Shown piece after piece: positions 1 to 7,100 of a stretch of DNA of 7,100 bases. The position numbers were made by a program, and so were the translations under genes. This DNA is from a virus (Duplodnaviria; Heunggongvirae; Uroviricota; Caudoviricetes). The notes beneath the pieces are model-generated. The model did no database searches. It was not told where the DNA came from and worked only from the letters and a program-made list of their open reading frames with translations. Where the stretch lies: the IMG/VR virus record IMGVR_UViG_2695420456_000022. One strand, written 5' to 3'. How positions within the stretch are numbered: position 1 is the first letter of the stretch; each line of letters starts with the position of its first letter.

Positions 1-217
1 ATATGTCCTTTTATCACCATATCAAGACAAGCCATTGATTTAATTAAATAATCTTCACTGAAAAAAGTGCCAAAAATCGCAAATTGACTACACCATTAAC
101 TACACCGTTCGGTGCACCGTATGAAACAACGTGGAACAAATAGACACAAGAAATATACAGGCGGATCATCTTTCCAGGGGGAAGCGCACCAATTCATGAG
201 GGGCGTTAATGTCTATA

Positions 218-250
218 TGGGGATCCCCACCTACCGGAATTTTTTTCCGG
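218..250. promoter_or_regulatory. Palindrome TGGGGATCCCCA plus CCGGAA-T5-TTCCGG hairpin
   Basis: Perfect 12-bp palindrome at 218-229. Inverted repeat CCGGAA (234-239) / TTCCGG (245-250) with a T5 loop. Function unknown; possible weak plus-strand terminator or protein-binding site. Confidence 0.3.
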
Positions 251-371
251 TTAAACGTTAATCAGGCTGGTGGGCTTTACCTGTTCGGTAGGTGTTATGA
301 TTATCGTAATACCTTTCCCCCAATGGGGTAAAAGCATCAACCGTAACGAAAGTCGTTATGGTTGCCACTGA

Positions 372-452
372 TACCCCAAATTTGGGTATCACGAGTAAGC
401 CCCAAAATCTGGGTGTTACTCTTACTACCCAAACTACGGGTAGTTTCCGTAG
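372..452. repeat. Three phased, degenerate ~27-bp tandem repeats with a conserved dyad core ACCC(C)AAA-N3/4-GGGT
   Basis: R1 372-398 TACCCCAAATTTGGGTATCACGAGTAA; R2 399-425 GCCCCAAAATCTGGGTGTTACTCTTAC; R3 426-452 TACCCAAACTACGGGTAGTTTCCGTAG. R1/R2 identical at 17 of 27 positions. R1 core is a near-palindrome (GATACCCCAAATTTGGGTATC). Related cores at 316-328 and 705-716. Confidence 0.6.
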
Positions 453-462
453 TTTCATGGTC

Positions 463-482
463 GAGTTGCAGATCTGCAACTC
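463..482. repeat. Perfect 20-bp palindrome GAGTTGCAGATCTGCAACTC
   Basis: The sequence is its own reverse complement. It lies immediately after the 27-bp repeats in a region with no convincing ORF. Confidence 0.7.
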
Positions 483-523
483 CCCCATTAACCACAGGCG
501 AATTTCCGCCTTCGGTCATTCCT

Positions 524-574
524 TAATCATCTGCGTAATCATAATGATTATTCAGCAAGCGCAATTTTGCGCTT
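524..574. promoter_or_regulatory. Operator-like motif cluster: TAATCAT twice direct plus once inverted, then a GC hairpin
   Basis: TAATCAT at 524-530 and 536-542, inverted copy ATGATTA at 544-550 (15-bp palindrome 536-550). 8-bp-arm inverted repeat AAGCGCAA-TT-TTGCGCTT at 557-574. Confidence 0.4.
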
Positions 575-736
575 TGCTTAAAGTTCAGCGAGTTACCGCG
601 CCGACTTCCTCAAATTGAGGTTTCCGAAAATATCAGCGGGTTAGCGATTAAGCTGACCATTAATTAAACTGCGAAAATGTCGTAGTTGTGAGGGGTGTAG
701 CCAACCCATTTTTGGGCCGTCGGGAATATCAACCAG

Positions 737-1018
737 TTACCGCCGCAACCGCTCCGGCTTCTTCCAGTGGTACGTTATTTTCTCCTTCTCCCGATACATC
801 TCCACGCGGCGACGGTAGGCCAGCAACTCAAGAACTCTGGTTCGTATGTTGCGCATATCCACGCCATTAAGTTCTATACCATCACGGCGCATCACCTCAG
901 CAACAACACGCGCATAGTTTTCGGCTGTCACGCTGTCCGGCTGCGTGGCCTGTTCGTCAGCCTGCTGGCTGATTCCGGCAACGCGGCGGATTAATCCCGT
1001 TATTTCGGCTTCTGTCAT
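737..1018 (-). CDS. Hypothetical protein (93 aa), last gene of the operon
   Basis: ATG start 13 nt after the terL stop with a GAGG SD 8 nt upstream (TAATGAGGTCAGCAGCATG). Charged, basic C-terminus (KITYHWKKPERLRR). No family recognised. Confidence 0.55.
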   Translation of the reverse strand: MTEAEITGLIRRVAGISQQADEQATQPDSVTAENYARVVAEVMRRDGIELNGVDMRNIRTRVLELLAYRRRVEMYREKEKITYHWKKPERLRR

Positions 1019-1031
1019 GCTGCTGACCTCA

Positions 1032-2693
1032 TTACACCCCGCTAAATTCTTCCAGTTTCTGGCGGTGGCTGTCGCTTATATCAAAAGCAAAATCCTCATG
1101 CTCTGCCTGGAATGTACCAAACGCCATCAGCGCCGCCACGCTCGGGTCTATCTTGTTCGGTGATTTTTTCTTGTTCGGCTTGATATTGGCGTTCGCGTCA
1201 CTCTGCATCACGACGTTACTCATCGACCAGGACAACACCGGATCGCCACGATGCACAATCACCCTGCGGTTAACAAAAACTTCGAACGATTTCGCCGCCG
1301 GACTGAATCTGAGGTAGGTTTGCGGGAACGGCTCCACCTCAAAACCTGCCCCCTGTAATTGCGTTCTGAGATGCGTGGCGTTCCACGTATCAAAGCCCAC
1401 CAGCCTGATATTAAATTTCTCCGCGTCCTGCATGATGTCATCTCTGATCCGGTCGTAATCAATGCAGTCGCCAGGCGTTGTGCGTATCCAGCCTGCTTTA
1501 GCCCACTGACGATAGATGGCGCGGTTTTTATTGGCGGGGTTCTGTAGCTGGAACTCCGGCAGATAATGACGGGAAACCAGCATAATGGTTTTACCTACCG
1601 GAAAGGCATAGCACACGCTGGAAATATCGCTTGTGGATGATAAATCCAGCCCCGCGTAACACTCCTGGCCGTGTAAATCTTCCTCCGTGAACGTTCCGGC
1701 ACACTCAGCCCATGCGCCGTTACCCATCCACGGGGTAGTCCCCTGACACCAGATATTAAATCGCTTTGTCATCATCTCCACCCACTGCGACGGAATACCC
1801 CGCGCTTTCTGGATGGTTGAGGCCAGTTTTTCACGATCCACGGAAACATCAATATTAGGGTTCGCCTTTATCCACATCGCCGGATCATCAACCTCGTTTT
1901 CGTCGTCCAGTTCGTAAATCAGTACAAAAATTGAATCGTTAACCTCTTCGCCGTCCAGGATCTGGCAGCAATAATCATAGTGCTGCTTACAGGCTGAAAC
2001 GACGTTGCTGCCTGATGTGGTAATGGCAAATAACAGCCCTTCGGGACGTGCGCCCATCCCCAGCTCAAGCGCGGAATAAACGCCGTTATCGGGGTGCAAG
2101 TGGTATTCGTCCACGATGGAAAGGCTGGGGTTTGTTCCCTCGATGGTTGCCGCTTTTGCTGCCAGCGGCTTTAACAGGCTGTTGCTTTTCGGGTGTATCA
2201 CCTTATGCGCCTGAATATTCACCCGCCTGCGTAACGGTCGGGATAAAAGGCACATCTGACGCGCATCATCAAAGACGATCCGCGCCTGGTCACGGCTCAC
2301 CGCTGCGGTGTAGATATCCTGCTGACCGTTCTCCATAATCAGAAACCAGTTAGCCAGAATCGCGGCGGTCGTTGATTTCGCATTTTTGCGCGGCACTTCG
2401 ATAAAGGCGCTCGTATATTTGCGCCGTCCGGTGGCCTTAACCTTAAAGCCGAGGATGCACGCAAAGGCGAACTGCTGCCACGGCTCCAGCTCAATGGGTC
2501 TGCCACGCATCGGCCCTTTTACGTGCGGGCACACCCTGGAAAAGGCAATAAACCGATCCACAACCTCACGATCGAACGTGTAAAGGGGGCTTTTAAGGTC
2601 CGAAAAGTACCGTTTAACGGCCTGTTTCAGCCGTTTACAGGCCGGAATTTTGCCCGTTTTTACGTCTTCTGCGTACCTATTCCAGGCGGTCAA
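1032..2693 (-). CDS. terL: Terminase large subunit (ATPase + nuclease), HK97-like Terminase_1 type
   Basis: 553-aa ORF with a P-loop-like VPRKNAKSTTAAI, Walker B-like LSIVDEYH and a C-terminal nuclease-like region (AGLDLSS..., LVGFDTWN). The start codon at 2693-2691 is TTG, preceded by GAGGA at about -11. Confidence 0.92.
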   Translation of the reverse strand: MTAWNRYAEDVKTGKIPACKRLKQAVKRYFSDLKSPLYTFDREVVDRFIAFSRVCPHVKGPMRGRPIELEPWQQFAFACILGFKVKATGRRKYTSAFIEVPRKNAKSTTAAILANWFLIMENGQQDIYTAAVSRDQARIVFDDARQMCLLSRPLRRRVNIQAHKVIHPKSNSLLKPLAAKAATIEGTNPSLSIVDEYHLHPDNGVYSALELGMGARPEGLLFAITTSGSNVVSACKQHYDYCCQILDGEEVNDSIFVLIYELDDENEVDDPAMWIKANPNIDVSVDREKLASTIQKARGIPSQWVEMMTKRFNIWCQGTTPWMGNGAWAECAGTFTEEDLHGQECYAGLDLSSTSDISSVCYAFPVGKTIMLVSRHYLPEFQLQNPANKNRAIYRQWAKAGWIRTTPGDCIDYDRIRDDIMQDAEKFNIRLVGFDTWNATHLRTQLQGAGFEVEPFPQTYLRFSPAAKSFEVFVNRRVIVHRGDPVLSWSMSNVVMQSDANANIKPNKKKSPNKIDPSVAALMAFGTFQAEHEDFAFDISDSHRQKLEEFSGV

Positions 2694-3033
2694 GCTCGTC
2701 CTCTTCTTCTGTTTCCGGTGGATTTTTACGGCGGCTTATCGGGTCAAAACCGAGCAAGGAGGCCATTTTTATCATCACTCTTTCCGCGTCGGATTTCGCG
2801 CTTAATGCGGGGTTTCTGCTCTCGCCGCCCTGACTGTTAACAATGCTGAACCCGCGCGCCGCAAGGTCTGCGACGGCTTTCCGGTATATCGAGTAATTGA
2901 CGCAATACAGTTCCAGATTGCTCCAGTCGGCGGGAGTCAGGTCACCCCGTTCCGCAAGCTGCCGCGATTTTTCCCGCCACTGCTTCACGGCGATATCATC
3001 CAGGTAGGCGGGGGCTTTCGGTGGTCTTGCCAT
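2677..3033 (-). CDS. terS: Terminase small subunit (P27-family-like)
   Basis: 118-aa ORF directly upstream of and overlapping terL by 17 nt. Sequence (YLDDIAVKQWRE...LELYCVNYSIYRKA...GGESRNPALSA...LLGFDPISRRK) fits my recollection of P27-family small terminases, with an acidic C-terminus. Confidence 0.82.
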   Translation of the reverse strand: MARPPKAPAYLDDIAVKQWREKSRQLAERGDLTPADWSNLELYCVNYSIYRKAVADLAARGFSIVNSQGGESRNPALSAKSDAERVMIKMASLLGFDPISRRKNPPETEEEDELDRLE

Positions 3034-3156: not shown

Positions 3157-3339
3157 TCAGCGATTGCGGAAACATTCCATAACCTCGCGGTCACGGTCGG
3201 TTAATCGCTTCGCTGTGATGCGTTCTGCGCATCCTGACGCTTTATCTTTATGCCCTGTTTCCTGTGTCTTCCATGCGTCACGCTGCCTTATAAGTCCACG
3301 GATAAGGCGGTTTTGTTCCCGCTCATTCATCAGCGTCAT
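3157..3339 (-). CDS. Hypothetical small basic protein (57-60 aa), speculative
   Basis: This is the 3' part of the 134-aa track ORF 3157..3561, which extends beyond the HNH stop. Candidate starts are ATG 3339 or ATG 3330, the latter overlapping the HNH stop as ATGAATGA. Product MTLMNEREQNRLIRGLIRQRDAWKTQETGHKDKASGCAERITAKRLTDRDREVMECFRNR. Weak SD; could be a chance ORF. Confidence 0.25.
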   Translation of the reverse strand: MTLMNEREQNRLIRGLIRQRDAWKTQETGHKDKASGCAERITAKRLTDRDREVMECFRNR

Positions 3340-3763
3340 ACATCCAGTTATTGCGGTTAGCGGCCCGTTCTTCCTCTTCACGAAATCCACCTGCGGCACG
3401 CTTACTTTTTGTTGCCGGATCAAGCCATTTCGTTTTCTGGTTATGGCACGCCTGACACAATGGTTGATGGTTCCATTCGGGCCAGAAGAGAACATCATCA
3501 CCGCCATTAATCGGGATAATGTGATCCACCACCACGGCGGGCGTATATATCCCCTTCTCAAGGCATCGCACGCATAACGGGTTTTTACTCAGATACATGG
3601 CGCGGTATTTGTCCCACTGTCTGGAGTACCCACGCGCGCGGCGGTGTCCTCGTCTGGCATCCTCTGCACGCCATGCCGCCCGCCTGTGCTCCTCACACTT
3701 GCCGGACTTCACGCGCCTGTTACAGCCTGGTTCTGTGCATCGTCTTAATGGTTGCCACGGCAT
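3323..3763 (-). CDS. HNH endonuclease (terminase-associated)
   Basis: 146-aa ORF with Cys pairs (CTEPGC, CVRC, CQAC) and HNH core VVDHIIPINGGDD...NHQPLCQACHNQK. Start ATG overlaps the connector stop (TGATG, 3761-3765). It lies immediately upstream of terS, as in HK97-like cos phages. Confidence 0.85.
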   Translation of the reverse strand: MPWQPLRRCTEPGCNRRVKSGKCEEHRRAAWRAEDARRGHRRARGYSRQWDKYRAMYLSKNPLCVRCLEKGIYTPAVVVDHIIPINGGDDVLFWPEWNHQPLCQACHNQKTKWLDPATKSKRAAGGFREEEERAANRNNWMYDADE

Positions 3764-4059
3764 CAGTACACCCCCACATCACGGTAAGCCGTCCAGAGTG
3801 CACCAATCGTCATGGGTACGCGTGTTTTTGCGTTATCCGCGACAATCTGGCGATTTTCATACAGGTGAGCGATAAACATCATGCAGCCAATCTTTATGGC
3901 TGGCGTGAACTCCAGCCCGTCATCAAAGCGCCTGCCTATGTGTATCTGGCACGCCTCAAGCGATGCGGCAATGTATCCGCTGATTAACTGGTCTTCCTCG
4001 TCGCCATCGATGCGGCAATGGAGTTTCACTTCTTCCAGGGTGATAAGTTCTTCTGTCAT
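3763..4059 (-). CDS. gp6-like head-tail connector protein
   Basis: 98-aa ORF; N-terminus ITLEEVKLHCRIDGDEEDQLISGYIAAS matches the L.E.K.HLRID.D.DD.LI..I.AA signature of gp6-like connectors. ATGA overlap with the upstream gene stop (4056-4059). Confidence 0.7.
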   Translation of the reverse strand: MTEELITLEEVKLHCRIDGDEEDQLISGYIAASLEACQIHIGRRFDDGLEFTPAIKIGCMMFIAHLYENRQIVADNAKTRVPMTIGALWTAYRDVGVY

Positions 4060-4394
4060 TTTTCCGCGCCCTCACGACAAAGAATTTCAAGGCGTGTCCT
4101 GGCGGCATCCGGCAGCGGCTGCCCGATGATATTCAGTACACGCCCCGCCAGCGGCCCCGTATTGACCTTTATCCGGCTGGTGGCGTTGATGTCCTTCCTG
4201 TAGCGTATCCATACCCTTACCGTTCCAGTCGCCAGTTCTGCACCCGATGAAATGGCCTCCTTGCTGCTGATCATGTTCACGCTTGCCCAGAGTGTGTGAC
4301 CGTCCACCCACGTTTCGAGTATTTCGCCCGTCATGGCTCTGGTCTGTTTCAGGGTCTGAATCGTTACCCTGTCACGCAGTCGCCCTATGTTCAT
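4056..4394 (-). CDS. Head-closure / head-tail adaptor protein (HK97 gp7-like, Phage_H_T_join-like); the ORF track starts it at 4436, but the ATG at 4394 is favoured
   Basis: Sequence MNIGRLRDRVTIQ...VRVWIRYRKDI...RLEILCRE matches the head-closure family pattern. The ATG at 4394-4392 overlaps the portal stop (4393-4391) as ATGA and has AGGGAG upstream; the 4436 ATG has no SD. Confidence 0.7.
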   Translation of the reverse strand: MNIGRLRDRVTIQTLKQTRAMTGEILETWVDGHTLWASVNMISSKEAISSGAELATGTVRVWIRYRKDINATSRIKVNTGPLAGRVLNIIGQPLPDAARTRLEILCREGAEK

Positions 4395-5602
4395 TCCGGT
4401 TTTTCTCCCTCGCTGATTTTTACTTCCTGTTTCCATGCCTGGCTGAACTCATCACCACCATCACGCGGTGACAGTCCTTCACGTTCGCGGGCTTCGTTCG
4501 GACACATAACGCCGGATTTGATGCCGCGCTCATAGGTGGCAAAGCGTTCGCCAGGTGTGGCCCGTAACAGGTCCGCGCTGTCAAACTCCACCTGATACCG
4601 GATACCAGGTACAGGCGAGGCCACCAGCAGGGCGTTTTTTATCTGCTGCTCAAAGTTCGCCAGCCACGGGCGCATCGTCATGGTGAGAAATGCGCGGCTT
4701 GCCTCGCTGAAATTGCTGTAGGTGCTGTTGCTGTATTCCTGCAAAAAAATCGGCGAGACGTTGAACATTCTGGCGATGTCTTCAATGGTGAAGCGACGGG
4801 AGGCCAGCCATTCAGCATCCTGATTACTCATGCCCAGCTGCTGATAGCTCATACCCCCTTCAAGGATGGGCGTTTTTCCGGCGTTTCTGGCCCCTTTGTA
4901 GCGTTCCAGTGCGGCTAATGCCTGTTTGCCCTTCACGCCGTCCAGCCATTCGCCTGACGTGATAACCCCTGCCGCCATCATGCCATCACGCATCACGCTC
5001 GCGCCGTGGCGTTGTTGGGCCAGCCCAAGCCCCAGCGATTCGCGGCAGATGGTTACAGGTGAGCGCCCCATAAAACCGTCATCCGTGGAGTAACGAAGGT
5101 GGAGAACCTCCCACGGTAAATAGTTGCGGGTGTTTCCGGTGTAGGCGTCAGTGATGCAGTAGCGCCAGTTATGCTCACCTGTCTGCTCAACGTTCACCGA
5201 CTGCGGCGGGTAAGGATGCAAAGCGACCGGAAAACCATCACGCCCCCACTGAATCACCGCATAAGCATTACCGTTTAACAGGCAGTGGCGGATCATCATT
5301 CGCTTAAACTGGTAGGGGGTTTGCCATGCGTTCGGGCGCTCGTTGAGGATGTGATCGACCGGATGAGAATCAAGCCACTCGCGGGCCTCCTTCCCCTTCT
5401 CATTGCGTACCAGGTACAGGTAACACGGCATGGTAGCCACCGCCTCAGAGATGACCGTCACGGCGTTCATGACGGCGGGCAGTGATTCCGCTGTCCCCGA
5501 TGATACGTACTCACCCGCCCCCGTGTTCGATGTGCCAGCCAGCGCCATAAACTCATCAAGCGTCATGCTGCGCTGCTCTTTTTTTCTTCTGAAAGGCCAC
5601 AT
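4391..5602 (-). CDS. Portal protein, HK97 family
   Basis: 403-aa ORF whose length and conserved blocks (LLNGNAYAVIQW, EVLHLRYSTDDGFMGRSP, RFTIEDIARMFNVSPIFL, RPWLANFEQ) fit the HK97-type portal pattern. Its start is 1 nt after the protease stop, and a GGGGGTG SD-like element lies upstream. Confidence 0.88.
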   Translation of the reverse strand: MWPFRRKKEQRSMTLDEFMALAGTSNTGAGEYVSSGTAESLPAVMNAVTVISEAVATMPCYLYLVRNEKGKEAREWLDSHPVDHILNERPNAWQTPYQFKRMMIRHCLLNGNAYAVIQWGRDGFPVALHPYPPQSVNVEQTGEHNWRYCITDAYTGNTRNYLPWEVLHLRYSTDDGFMGRSPVTICRESLGLGLAQQRHGASVMRDGMMAAGVITSGEWLDGVKGKQALAALERYKGARNAGKTPILEGGMSYQQLGMSNQDAEWLASRRFTIEDIARMFNVSPIFLQEYSNSTYSNFSEASRAFLTMTMRPWLANFEQQIKNALLVASPVPGIRYQVEFDSADLLRATPGERFATYERGIKSGVMCPNEAREREGLSPRDGGDEFSQAWKQEVKISEGEKPE

Positions 5603-5603
5603 A

Positions 5604-6176
5604 TCACACCCCCGCTAAATCCGCCCACCAGCGGCGATTATCCGCACGCGGCATTTTTTCGGGGTGCTGCTCATACAGGGAACGGCGGGCCAGCTCCACG
5701 TCGGAATCAGGGTAAGCCGGTACGGATGTAACGGTAATTTCGTACAGTTCCGCCACCAGCACGGTGCGCACGCATGGATCTGTTGTGGTATCCCATACAT
5801 CCTTACGGGAACGAAAGCCAAAGCTCATGCCGGATATATCACCTCGTTTAACCAGTTCGATAACGTCGCGCCCTGTACTGGTATCCGGTGGGGTCAGTTC
5901 AAAGCGTAACCCTGTTTCGTCCTCTTCCAGTTTCAGCGTGCCGGAACGGGTGCGCCCCAGTAACATGCTGTGGTCATGCTCATACAGGCCGCGAACGTCA
6001 TTACCCGCCGCAAGCCATTCAGTAAACGCCCCCCGCTGGAATTTTTCGTAAAACTCACCCCATAACAGTTCTGAAAGCTTATCCCAGCGAACAATGTAGC
6101 CCGTCAGCGTACCGGCTCCGCTGGTGGTGATTTCCGATGACCGGATTTCCATACTCTTCATAATTTTTTCACCCAT
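5604..6176 (-). CDS. Prohead maturation protease, HK97 family (S78-like)
   Basis: 190-aa ORF with motifs GYIVRWD, GAF, YEHDHSMLLGRT (candidate catalytic His) and GMSFGF (candidate catalytic Ser), then YEITVTSVPAYP. ATG at 6176 has no obvious SD; the ATG at 6161 (MKSMEIR...) is preceded by GGGTGA and may be the true start. Confidence 0.85.
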   Translation of the reverse strand: MGEKIMKSMEIRSSEITTSGAGTLTGYIVRWDKLSELLWGEFYEKFQRGAFTEWLAAGNDVRGLYEHDHSMLLGRTRSGTLKLEEDETGLRFELTPPDTSTGRDVIELVKRGDISGMSFGFRSRKDVWDTTTDPCVRTVLVAELYEITVTSVPAYPDSDVELARRSLYEQHPEKMPRADNRRWWADLAGV

Positions 6177-6215: not shown

Positions 6216-7100
6216 TTAATCGTCGTCCTGTGGCAGTTCCAGAATCTTGATCGCGTTCGAATCCACCACGCCACCGCCTAAATATTTCTGCGCGAAAATT
6301 TTGATGAAGCCCGGCTCTGTGAGGTTGTCCGGTCTGGTGCGAACACCTGTTTCGTGATCAACAATGTAGTAACCGCGTTTGAAGTCACCCAGGGCAATAA
6401 CGTTATCCGGCATAAACTCCAGATATTCGACCGGAAGGCCCAGCAACGTATCAGGATCACCCGCCTGTAAACGGTCACGCCAGATGTAATCACCGTTCGC
6501 GTTCTTCACCTTCTGGAGTTTTGCCGCCGTCGTGGAGTTAACCACCCAGACCGCGTTTTTGCGGTATTTTTTACGTAATGCAAATTTCAGGTCGATCAGC
6601 GGGTCCGCAGATGTCCACGCCAGAGATTCGGAAGGTTTAATTACCTGCAACGTACCAAAATCACGCTCTTTGTCGTTCTTCTCTGCACGGGGTACGGATA
6701 AAAAGCCTTTTGCTTTTTTGTCACCGTCGCCCACAACCAGATCGCTTTCTTCGGTTTCCGTGAAGGTGTCGCCAATCTCGCCCGTCAGCCATGAAAGGAT
6801 GTCCACATCGGAAAAATCCACGATTTCCTGCGTGGTGCGCGGGTACGCATAGACCGGATACAGCTTAATGCTCACCTCGTTAATCTGCGGGGTGCTGGTC
6901 TGTTCGCGTGCCTTACCCTCTTCACCGTGGTTAACGGTCGCACCGCCAGCGGAAACAAGCTGCTTAAACTCGTTGCTGCTGATTTTCTTCGTAAGCGTCG
7001 TCTCAGCACCGTCTGGCAGATCCTGAAATTCCTGAGAGAATAGTGGACACCAAATATGGTGGACGCTATCCATGAAATCATTAACCGCAGTGCGTAAAAA
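6216..7100 (-). CDS. HK97-fold major capsid protein, 5'-partial (reading frame stays open to the window edge at 7100; the ATG at 7073 is probably internal)
   Basis: The C-terminal half (LLGLPVEYLEFMPDNVIALGDFKRGYYIVDHETGVRTRPDNLTEPGFIKIFAQKYLGGGVVDSNAIKIL) matches the conserved pattern I associate with HK97-family capsid proteins (L.G.PV...MP....GDF...Y.I.D..G..........F.......GG.V.D..A.K.L). There is no in-frame stop between 7073 and 7100 and no Shine-Dalgarno before the 7073 ATG. It sits next to protease and portal genes. Confidence 0.8.
   Translation of the reverse strand, partial: FLRTAVNDFMDSVHHIWCPLFSQEFQDLPDGAETTLTKKISSNEFKQLVSAGGATVNHGEEGKAREQTSTPQINEVSIKLYPVYAYPRTTQEIVDFSDVDILSWLTGEIGDTFTETEESDLVVGDGDKKAKGFLSVPRAEKNDKERDFGTLQVIKPSESLAWTSADPLIDLKFALRKKYRKNAVWVVNSTTAAKLQKVKNANGDYIWRDRLQAGDPDTLLGLPVEYLEFMPDNVIALGDFKRGYYIVDHETGVRTRPDNLTEPGFIKIFAQKYLGGGVVDSNAIKILELPQDDD

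What the first reader, a model, noticed from the sequence alone, without database searches (positions are those of the whole stretch)
737..1018. Unrecognised 93-aa gene translationally coupled to terL at the operon end
It has a good SD (GAGG 8 nt upstream of the ATG) only 13 nt after the terL stop, so it is probably expressed with the terminase. I recognise no family. The position after terL, where canonical phages place the portal gene, is unusual. In satellites the region after the packaging genes often carries accessory cargo, so this could be a packaging-specificity factor, an anti-helper or interference protein, or a moron.
Basis: partly seen in the sequence, partly recalled or inferred. 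Interest (0 to 1): 0.5.

Follow-up and report, generated by a model that had tools for sequence, protein, structure and literature searches.

The report
Conserved last gene of PICI satellites
The 93-codon ORF is a real, selected gene of unknown function that ends the late operon of many enterobacterial phage satellites (PICIs), with or without a terminase gene beside it, so it is a catalogued but uncharacterised backbone gene and not a terminase partner or a misplaced portal.

Summary
The ORF at 737-1018 (-) starts 13 nt after the terL stop, with GAGG 8 nt upstream of the ATG.

The window is the right end of a capsid-forming PICI of the EcCIEDL933 / CP-933C type, inserted between phoQ and roxA. 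The published cf-PICI gene order (capsid, protease, portal, connectors, HNH, terS, terL) explains why no portal follows terL.

The gene is real. It is annotated in RefSeq, matches phrog_1561 over its full length, and occurs in 1567 of 5426 complete E. coli genomes. Its median dN/dS is 0.27.

It is not tied to terL. About 70% of E. coli copies lie in PICIs with no terL, usually after a TerS-like (Rpp-like) gene. DNA similarity between PICI types begins at its start codon and runs on into a palindrome-rich non-coding end.

Homologues of 57-66 aa are the last gene of cf-PICIs in about ten other genera. Where tail-related cargo is present, they lie after it.

By locus-tag mapping it is not "gene 1792", whose mutation lowers transfer. 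I found no experiment on it.

No Pfam, NCBIfam, PADLOC, PDB or fold match is informative. The model is a helical hairpin with a basic arm and an invariant WKKPERLRR tail.

My best guess, at low confidence, is a late-made nucleic-acid-binding or adaptor protein that acts at a step shared by all these PICIs.

The parts
737..1018 (-). 93-aa CDS (11.0 kDa, pI 9.8). The N-terminal 30 aa are acidic. The core is a helical hairpin at residues 31-82. The tail Y-x-W-K-K-P-E-R-L-R-R is invariant.
1027..1030 (-). Shine-Dalgarno GAGG, 8 nt before the ATG. It lies inside the 13-nt spacer (1019-1031) that follows the terL stop.
   Evidence: An SD-like G-rich run also precedes the gene in most other contexts.
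1032..2693 (-). terL, the upstream neighbour in this element only (cf-PICI context).
725..739 (-). Motif TAACTGGTTGATATT, which overlaps the stop codon. By eye it fits the IHF-type consensus YAANNNNYTGATW (consensus recalled from memory). It is the first of three phased copies.
   Evidence: 3 matches against 0.15 and 0.41 expected. The same motif directly follows the terL stop in Xenorhabdus cf-PICIs that lack the small gene.
581..643 (-). Two further copies of the motif (629-643 and 581-595), 96 and 48 nt apart. Each is followed by a palindrome whose stem sequence differs between copies and between islands.
365..487 (.). 123-nt non-coding element: three ACCC-N6/7-GGGT palindromes plus the palindrome GAGTTGCAGATCTGCAACTC. 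It is 92-94% identical across PICI types, which is more than the gene itself (81-85%).
   Evidence: No Rfam family.
35..736 (.). Non-coding, palindrome-rich 3' end of the island, co-inherited with the gene. The island boundary is near position 35, and the phoQ stop lies just left of position 1.
   Evidence: Folding of 360-745 gives z -7.3 and -8.2 on the two strands.

Best explanation
Shown:
- The ORF is a genuine gene under purifying selection. It encodes an 11-kDa basic protein.
- The AlphaFold model has a short helix, a loop and a long Arg-rich helix, followed by an invariant aromatic-x-W-K-K-P...R-R tail.
- It is the conserved last cistron of the unidirectional late operon of enterobacterial PICIs, both capsid-forming and classical.
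- It belongs to a 3'-end module (the gene plus 0.4-1.3 kb of palindrome-rich non-coding DNA) that is shared between islands whose packaging genes are unrelated.
- It is translationally coupled to whatever gene happens to precede it. In this window that gene is terL.

Inferred:
- It is made late, after helper-triggered AlpA activation.
- It serves a step common to all these islands, not the terminase motor or capsid assembly of one packaging type.

My committed guess is a small nucleic-acid-binding or adaptor protein. Its basic helix and C-terminal peptide would bind the island's own terminal DNA or RNA, or a host or helper factor recruited there (the int-distal arm next to attP, with IHF-like sites and hairpins). 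Its role would then be architectural or regulatory: controlling recombination, read-through towards int on circular or concatemeric DNA, or transcript stability. The biochemical activity itself is not shown.
For: - Real gene under selection.
- Element identity and gene order; the preprint read.
- Not specific to terL.
- The mosaic boundary falls exactly at its start codon, and the downstream region is shared.
- The same allele occurs with terL, Nu1-like and DUF1441 neighbours.
- It stays last in the operon in about ten other genera, even when a tail-assembly or tape-measure gene is inserted after terL.
- No consensus promoter was found in the two loci scanned (L093, L090), consistent with expression as the last cistron.
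- Basic, Arg-rich C-terminal half (pI 10.9) and a confident helical-hairpin core (pLDDT 86-94 for residues 31-70).
- A palindrome and IHF-like motif array starts at its stop codon.
Against: - There is no homology to any DNA- or RNA-binding family. The weak homeodomain hit (E 0.02) vanished with a broader profile and has no fold support.
- The IHF-like motif also occurs right after terL in Xenorhabdus islands that lack the gene, so the array does not need the protein.
- The 123-nt element accompanies only about 40% of gene copies (803 against 2012 places).
- No co-variation between protein alleles and motif variants was seen.
- Basic charge alone is weak evidence.
- The published EcCIEDL933 mutagenesis apparently did not include the gene, so no phenotype is known.
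Confidence: 0.35

Rival explanations
1. Packaging accessory factor. It would work with the terminase or Rpp complex, for example in cos cleavage, termination, or docking the motor to the prohead.
For: In almost every context it directly follows, and is usually tightly coupled to, a terminase-type gene:
- terL (window, L007, L008, L094);
- a Nu1-like TerS/Rpp (L089, L093);
- a DUF1441/phrog_141 TerS-like gene (L091, L092);
- a weak phrog_57 TerS-like gene (L088).

It is co-expressed with the late genes, and it has a conserved C-terminal docking-like peptide.
Against: - The terminase systems concerned are non-homologous (own HK97-type TerS/TerL+HNH versus a hijacked lambda terminase), yet the protein allele is the same.
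- One copy (L090) follows a capsid-protease fusion with no terminase gene.
- In other genera a tail gene separates it from terL.
- It is absent from the Xenorhabdus, Proteus, Serratia and Pasteurellaceae cf-PICIs examined, whose TerL is 69-78% identical.
- By locus-tag mapping it lies outside the 9-gene packaging module (1786-1794) that the authors defined.
Confidence: 0.2
2. Accessory cargo: an anti-phage or interference protein, or a host-modulating moron, carried in the known 3' defence hot spot of PICIs.
For: - PICIs are reported to carry immune systems at their 5' or 3' ends (PMC11364771 section 6).
- The cf-PICI authors expect immune systems in the variable region after the packaging module.
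- The gene lies at that end and has no known function.
Against: - There are no PADLOC or NCBIfam hits.
- Cargo is expected to vary between similar islands. This gene is conserved across dissimilar islands: 29% of E. coli genomes, and 492 of 538 genomes with this terL carry the terL/small-gene junction.
- Where extra ORFs exist, they lie downstream of it or between terL and it.
- No promoter of its own was found for lysogenic expression.
- EcCIEDL933 is reported not to harm its helper (abstract).
Confidence: 0.15
3. A small structural or chaperone protein of the particle: head completion, neck or tail docking, or a CpmB-like internal scaffold whose C-terminal peptide binds capsid or portal.
For: - In other cf-PICIs the neighbouring slot after terL holds tail- or neck-related genes: tail assembly protein phrog_32, tape measure phrog_2854, minor tail protein U PF06141, Neck1 phrog_5.
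- In lambda a small head-completion gene (W) follows terL (own knowledge).
- A helical hairpin plus a conserved tail is the general build of small scaffold or adaptor proteins.
Against: - About 70% of copies are in PICIs that, according to the literature, use helper capsids (PMC6092414).
- There is no Pfam hit to gpW or to any head or neck family.
- Nothing in the passages of the EcCIEDL933 particle description that I retrieved mentions such a protein (I searched by keyword and did not read the section through).
- There are no fold matches.
Confidence: 0.1
4. Not a functional protein: the ORF is conserved only because it overlaps cis-acting DNA or RNA elements.
For: Its last codons resemble the start of the downstream repeat unit (GGCGCGGTAAC...), and its stop codon lies inside the first motif copy.
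Against: - dN/dS is 0.27 over the whole length and the frame is intact at dS up to 0.78.
- Synonymous changes occur within the invariant tail.
- Homologues with only 21-45% identity keep the same core and tail in other genera.
Confidence: 0.03

Closest known systems
PHROG families phrog_1561 (93-aa form) and phrog_7271 (about 63-aa form), both 'unknown function'. RefSeq WP_000133423.1 / WP_000133425.1, 'hypothetical protein'.
   Same: This is the family itself: full-length match, E 2.9e-56. The short form corresponds to the 57-66-aa homologues found in other genera.
   Different: Nothing differs. The family carries no functional annotation, and I found no paper that mentions it.
cf-PICI EcCIEDL933 / CP-933C (Alqurainy et al., preprint 10.1101/2022.09.08.507074)
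   Same: The window is a close relative of this element, at the same phoQ-roxA site and with the same gene order. The EDL933 copy of the gene (RS08745) is 89.7% identical in DNA.
   Different: By locus-tag mapping the gene is about EDL933_1795. That places it outside the 9-gene packaging module 1786-1794, which was mutated gene by gene. It is not 'gene 1792'.
Phage lambda gpW (small head-completion protein encoded directly after terL)
   Same: Only the position: a small ORF immediately after the large terminase gene (own knowledge; compare the lambda-like prophage).
   Different: There is no sequence or profile similarity. This gene also occurs without any terL and in islands that use helper heads.
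Small late-operon proteins of staphylococcal SaPIs (CpmB, Ppi)
   Same: Small helical satellite proteins made from the late operon. In those proteins a short terminal peptide or surface binds a helper protein (own knowledge).
   Different: No homology was tested or seen. EcCIEDL933 is reported not to interfere with its helper, and the gene is shared by islands with different packaging strategies.
Small basic recombination directionality factors or regulators of satellites and phages (AlpA/Vis/Xis/Cox type)
   Same: Small and basic, and encoded next to an att-proximal region rich in IHF-like sites and repeats.
   Different: There is no winged-helix or HTH signature. It is encoded at the end far from int and in the late operon. 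These islands already encode an AlpA-type protein next to int.

Membership tests
Capsid-forming PICI (the element that carries the gene) | Packaging module in the order capsid-protease-portal-head closure/adaptor-HNH-terS-terL | tested here: met
   Pfam and PHROG assignments of all eight genes. The order matches the description read.
Capsid-forming PICI (the element that carries the gene) | PICI backbone (integrase, AlpA-type regulator, primase/replicase), about 15 kb, no tail or lysis genes, own att site | tested here: met
   Annotated context in FORC_042, PV15-279 and EDL933. The island spans about 15 kb between phoQ and roxA.
phrog_1561 | Full-length profile match | tested here: met
   E 2.9e-56, residues 1-93 against profile positions 1-93 of 93.
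EcCIEDL933 'hypothetical gene 1792' (mutation severely lowers transfer) | Being the sixth gene after capsid gene 1786 | tested here: not met
   RS08700 = EDL933_1786 = capsid. At least seven genes separate the capsid gene from the 93-aa gene, so its number is >=1794. Gene 1792 is therefore the ORF after HNH, at window 3157-3339.
Homeodomain-like / HTH DNA-binding proteins | Significant profile or fold match to a three-helix HTH domain | tested here: not met
Known anti-phage defence proteins (PADLOC-DB) | Match to a defence-system HMM | tested here: not met
   0 families at E<=1.
Lambda gpW / head-tail joining or other head, neck and terminase families | Pfam or PHROG match to a structural or packaging family | tested here: not met
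   No Pfam family for any of 15 members at E<=0.1. The only PHROG matches are families of unknown function.
Arginine-rich-motif RNA-binding peptides (lambda N type) | ARM that binds a boxB-like hairpin | not testable with these tools
   This rests only on a by-eye resemblance recalled from memory (R-x-R-x-R ... Q-W-K). No computation supports it.

The most novel reading that the evidence does not exclude
The small protein and the palindrome/IHF-like repeat array that begins at its stop codon form a previously undescribed terminal module of enterobacterial PICIs. The protein, through its Arg-rich helix and invariant WKKPERLRR tail, would bind the hairpins (as RNA or DNA) or recruit a host factor such as IHF. 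It would thereby control what happens at the island's int-distal end: read-through into int on circles and concatemers, transcript stability, or recombination directionality. This would be a satellite function independent of the packaging strategy.
Probability: 0.15. Interest if true: 0.6.

Novelty: already known. Interest (0 to 1): 0.33.

Why it matters
The element is a published cf-PICI, and the ORF is already catalogued as a hypothetical protein (RefSeq) and as phrog_1561. So the finding is not a new kind of system.

What this work adds is modest but useful for satellite biology:
- The gene is one of the few genes shared by capsid-forming and classical PICIs outside the int-alpA-pri backbone.
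- It sits in about 29% of complete E. coli genomes.
- It travels with an unusually structured non-coding end.
- It appears never to have been tested.

A knockout in the existing EcCIEDL933/HK106 and EcCICFT073/lambda systems would be cheap. It would show whether PICIs have a further common life-cycle step.

Tried and rejected
- **Giant repeat proteins.** P0139 and P0147, from the representative search, are SEA-domain and ankyrin/NACHT repeat proteins. BLASTP shows only low-complexity matches. They are spurious.
- **Lambda-type cosN near the gene.** The gene and its downstream region are not a cos site. In the classical PICIs the cosN sequences lie upstream of the Rpp-like gene, except that L088 has a second cosN just upstream of the small gene's start (2347-2358). 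No cosN occurs in the window.
- **Known RNA or tRNA in 1-1200.** None found.
- **Own promoter upstream of the gene in non-coupled contexts.** None convincing.
- **Identification with 'gene 1792'.** Rejected by locus-tag mapping.
- **True phages.** Only one marginal tblastn hit in 50,697 phage records.
- **Tai (tail assembly inhibition).** TaiEcA, the one Tai protein whose size is given, is 26 kDa, and in PICIs the tai genes lie in a different slot, downstream of pri.
- **Excisionase-like ORF after the small gene in L011.** My impression from memory found no Pfam support.
- **Structure prediction.** The single-sequence AlphaFold model was poor (pLDDT 61). The 21-sequence run gave pLDDT 74.

Full report
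**1. The observation**

On the minus strand, terL ends with TAA (complement of 1032-1034). Thirteen bases follow (TGAGGTCAGCAGC), with GAGG 8 nt before the ATG at 1018-1016. The ORF then runs to TAA at 739-737 and has 93 codons.

**2. The surroundings**

All genes in the window are on the minus strand. By Pfam and PHROGs they are:
- major capsid (6216-7073, cut by the window end)
- prohead protease (5604-6176)
- portal (4391-5602)
- head closure (4056-4436)
- head-tail adaptor (3763-4059)
- HNH endonuclease (3323-3763)
- P27-family terS (2677-3033)
- terL (1032-2693)

The window matches E. coli chromosomes at up to 99.5% identity. In strain FORC_042 it is the right end of a roughly 15-kb island between phoQ and roxA. 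That island carries an integrase, an HTH regulator, an Icd-like gene, a replicase, SSB and a PerC-like gene, and has no tail or lysis genes. The same island architecture lies in tqsA in an O157:H7 strain, and at phoQ-roxA in EDL933 itself.

This is the capsid-forming PICI EcCIEDL933 (CP-933C). Its published gene order is morphogenesis genes first, then hnh-terS-terL (preprint 10.1101/2022.09.08.507074). So the absence of a portal gene after terL is normal for this kind of element.

**3. Is the ORF a gene?**

Yes.
- RefSeq annotates it as a hypothetical protein, WP_000133423.1.
- It matches phrog_1561 end to end, E 2.9e-56.
- 1028 protein clusters match it, all named hypothetical or prophage protein.
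- A blastn search finds it in 1567 of 5426 complete E. coli genomes, at 2012 places, with 80-100% DNA identity.
- In ten copies taken across that range the frame is intact. Pairwise dS reaches 0.78, median dN/dS is 0.27, and third codon positions vary most.
- The C-terminal peptide WKKPERLRR is essentially invariant (one of ten copies has WKTPERLRR) while its codons change synonymously. So selection acts on the protein and not only on overlapping DNA.

**4. It is not a terL companion**

The 3' end of this terL occurs in only 538 genomes (584 places). The terL/small-gene junction occurs in at least 492 of them. So nearly all E. coli cf-PICIs carry the gene, but about 70% of all copies lie elsewhere.

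Sampling those other copies shows the gene as the last gene of other PICI types:
- after a Nu1-like TerS/Rpp-type gene, in islands next to clpS (L089, L093);
- after a DUF1441/phrog_141 TerS-like gene, in islands with a ClpP-protease/capsid fusion (L091, L092);
- after a weakly TerS-like ORF with a lambda-type cosN in between (L088);
- after the capsid fusion alone (L090).

DNA similarity between these islands and the window starts at the start codon (window 1018) or within 14 nt upstream of it. It continues downstream into the non-coding end. The same protein allele (…SQQRRESAKNTYQWKKPERLRR) is found next to terL, Nu1-like and DUF1441 neighbours. The gene therefore belongs to a shared 3'-end module and does not co-evolve with any packaging protein.

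**5. Other genera**

I examined eighty loci encoding a TerL 69-99% identical to this one.
- The 93-aa form occurs only in Shigella/E. coli.
- Forms of 57-66 aa that lack the N-terminal 30 residues are present in Pluralibacter, Pantoea, Rosenbergiella, Intestinirhabdus, Enterobacter, Kluyvera, Klebsiella pneumoniae ATCC 13883, Winslowiella and Pectobacterium.
- Where a lambda gpI-like tail assembly gene (phrog_32) or a tape-measure gene (phrog_2854) follows terL, the small gene comes after it. So it remains last in the late operon, and the variable slot lies between terL and it.
- In Pluralibacter and Pantoea, further ORFs of unknown function lie downstream of it.
- It was not found in the Xenorhabdus, Proteus, Serratia, Yersinia, Gilliamella or Pasteurellaceae loci.

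**6. Experimental record**

The preprint states that every gene of the EcCIEDL933 packaging module is essential for transfer except 'hypothetical gene 1792', whose mutation severely reduces transfer. I mapped the numbering as follows:
- PMC11125564 gives EDL933_RS08695 = EDL933_1785 and RS08700 = EDL933_1786, the capsid.
- PMC5120812 independently fixes 1785 through its 406-nt upstream gap.
- The 2025 preprint calls the capsid 'gene 1786' and speaks of a 9-gene packaging module.

Counting forward, HNH is 1791, and 1792 is the small ORF between HNH and terS (window 3157-3339; phrog_3173). terL is 1794 and the 93-aa gene is about 1795. In any case its number cannot be below 1794.

So the 93-aa gene is not gene 1792, and it lies outside the module that was mutated. 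The authors describe the region after the module as variable and 'expected to encode immune systems'. I found no paper that mentions the protein.

**7. What the protein looks like**

- It is 11.0 kDa with pI 9.8. Residues 1-30 are acidic (pI 4.2) and residues 52-93 are strongly basic (pI 10.9).
- AlphaFold2 with a 21-sequence alignment gives pLDDT 74. The model has a weakly placed helix at 3-14, a disordered linker at 18-28, and a confident hairpin of helices 32-45 and 52-82 (pLDDT 86-94 for residues 31-70), followed by the tail.
- Residues invariant or nearly so across the wide family are G47, L50, G52, R59, R71, W85, K87, P88 and R92.
- No Pfam, NCBIfam or PADLOC family matches.
- A PDB profile search gave E 0.02 to the HMBOX1 homeodomain. 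That hit disappeared with the broader profile.
- The family is narrow, with 36 representatives at 50% identity, two of which are spurious repeat proteins.

**8. The downstream DNA**

About 700 nt (35-736) separate the gene from the island end.
- The stop codon lies inside TAACTGGTTGATATT, which by eye fits the IHF-type consensus YAANNNNYTGATW (consensus recalled from memory).
- Two more copies follow, 96 and 48 nt apart: 3 matches against 0.15 expected.
- In most copies a palindrome follows, and its stem sequence differs between copies and islands while pairing is kept.
- A 123-nt element (365-487), with three ACCC-N6/7-GGGT palindromes and a GATC-centred palindrome, is 92-94% identical across PICI types. 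It is present at 803 places in 706 genomes.
- The stretch 360-745 folds far better than shuffles on both strands, z -7.3 and -8.2. This fits DNA palindromes and does not identify a transcribed strand.
- No Rfam family or tRNA matches.
- The IHF-like motif also directly follows the terL stop in Xenorhabdus cf-PICIs that lack the small gene. So the motif marks the end of the operon independently of the gene.

**9. Interpretation**

Shown: this is a real, selected, widely distributed last cistron of PICI late operons. It is co-inherited with a structured non-coding end and is independent of the packaging type.

Inferred: it is expressed late, and it acts at a step common to these islands.

My committed mechanism is nucleic-acid or adaptor binding at the island's int-distal end. 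It rests only on charge, architecture and position. It is weakened by the motif's independence from the gene and by the lack of any fold homology, so I give it about one in three.

The rivals are a packaging accessory (0.2), defence or moron cargo (0.15), a structural or chaperone protein (0.1), and a non-functional ORF (0.03).

**10. Verdict**

The element is known, and the gene is catalogued but uncharacterised. It has moderate to low interest, with one cheap and well-defined experiment that would settle its role.

Noticed in passing
window 3157-3339 (-): A 60-aa ORF between HNH and terS (RefSeq WP_072127963.1 in FORC_042, WP_000174068.1 in EDL933 and PV15-279; phrog_3173, unknown function). 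It overlaps the HNH 3' end by 17 nt. By locus-tag mapping this is the 'hypothetical gene 1792' of EcCIEDL933, whose mutation severely reduces island transfer. It lies where an HK97-type cos site would be expected.
   Followed up: partly
window 365-487: A 123-nt non-coding element with three ACCC-N6/7-GGGT palindromes and the palindrome GAGTTGCAGATCTGCAACTC. It is 92-94% identical across different PICI types, which is more conserved than the adjacent gene. It occurs at 803 places in 706 E. coli genomes, has two copies in L094, and is absent from EDL933. No Rfam match.
   Followed up: partly
window 581-739 (-); L007 26745-27182; L027/L028/L031/L072 at 8662: Repeat units in 48-nt phase, each made of an IHF-consensus-like motif (TAACNNNYTGATATT) plus a palindrome of variable sequence. 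The first unit overlaps the small gene's stop codon, and EDL933 has five copies. The same motif immediately follows the terL stop in Xenorhabdus cf-PICIs that lack the small gene.
   Followed up: partly
L010, L012-L015, L017, L031, L032, L045, L059, L061, L062, L064 (about 8675-9300); L023 8674-10971; L075 8688-9113; L081/L083/L087: In cf-PICIs of other genera the slot right after terL carries tail-related genes. These are a roughly 200-aa lambda gpI-like tail assembly protein (phrog_32), a 765-aa tape measure protein in K. pneumoniae ATCC 13883 (phrog_2854), minor tail protein U (PF06141), or a Neck1/tail-completion protein (phrog_5). This is notable for satellites said to encode no tail genes.
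   Followed up: partly
window 81-139; L002 28692-28750; L007 12251-12308: An imperfect repeat of about 58 nt (78-81% identity). One copy lies near the int-distal end of the island and the other in the int-flank intergenic region at the opposite end. It may be part of the attL/attR arms.
   Followed up: no
L088 2347-2358 (+) and 3086-3097 (-); L089 3031-3042; L093 3219-3230: Exact lambda-type cosN sequences (GGGCGGCGACCT) in classical PICIs. In L088 two copies in opposite orientation flank the TerS-like ORF, and one lies just upstream of the small gene. No such cosN occurs in the cf-PICI window.
   Followed up: no
L011 2842-3114; L030 8911-9503: In the Pluralibacter and Pantoea cf-PICIs, additional ORFs of 90-131 aa with no Pfam match lie downstream of the short homologue. 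Here the 3' cargo slot is beyond the small gene.
   Followed up: partly
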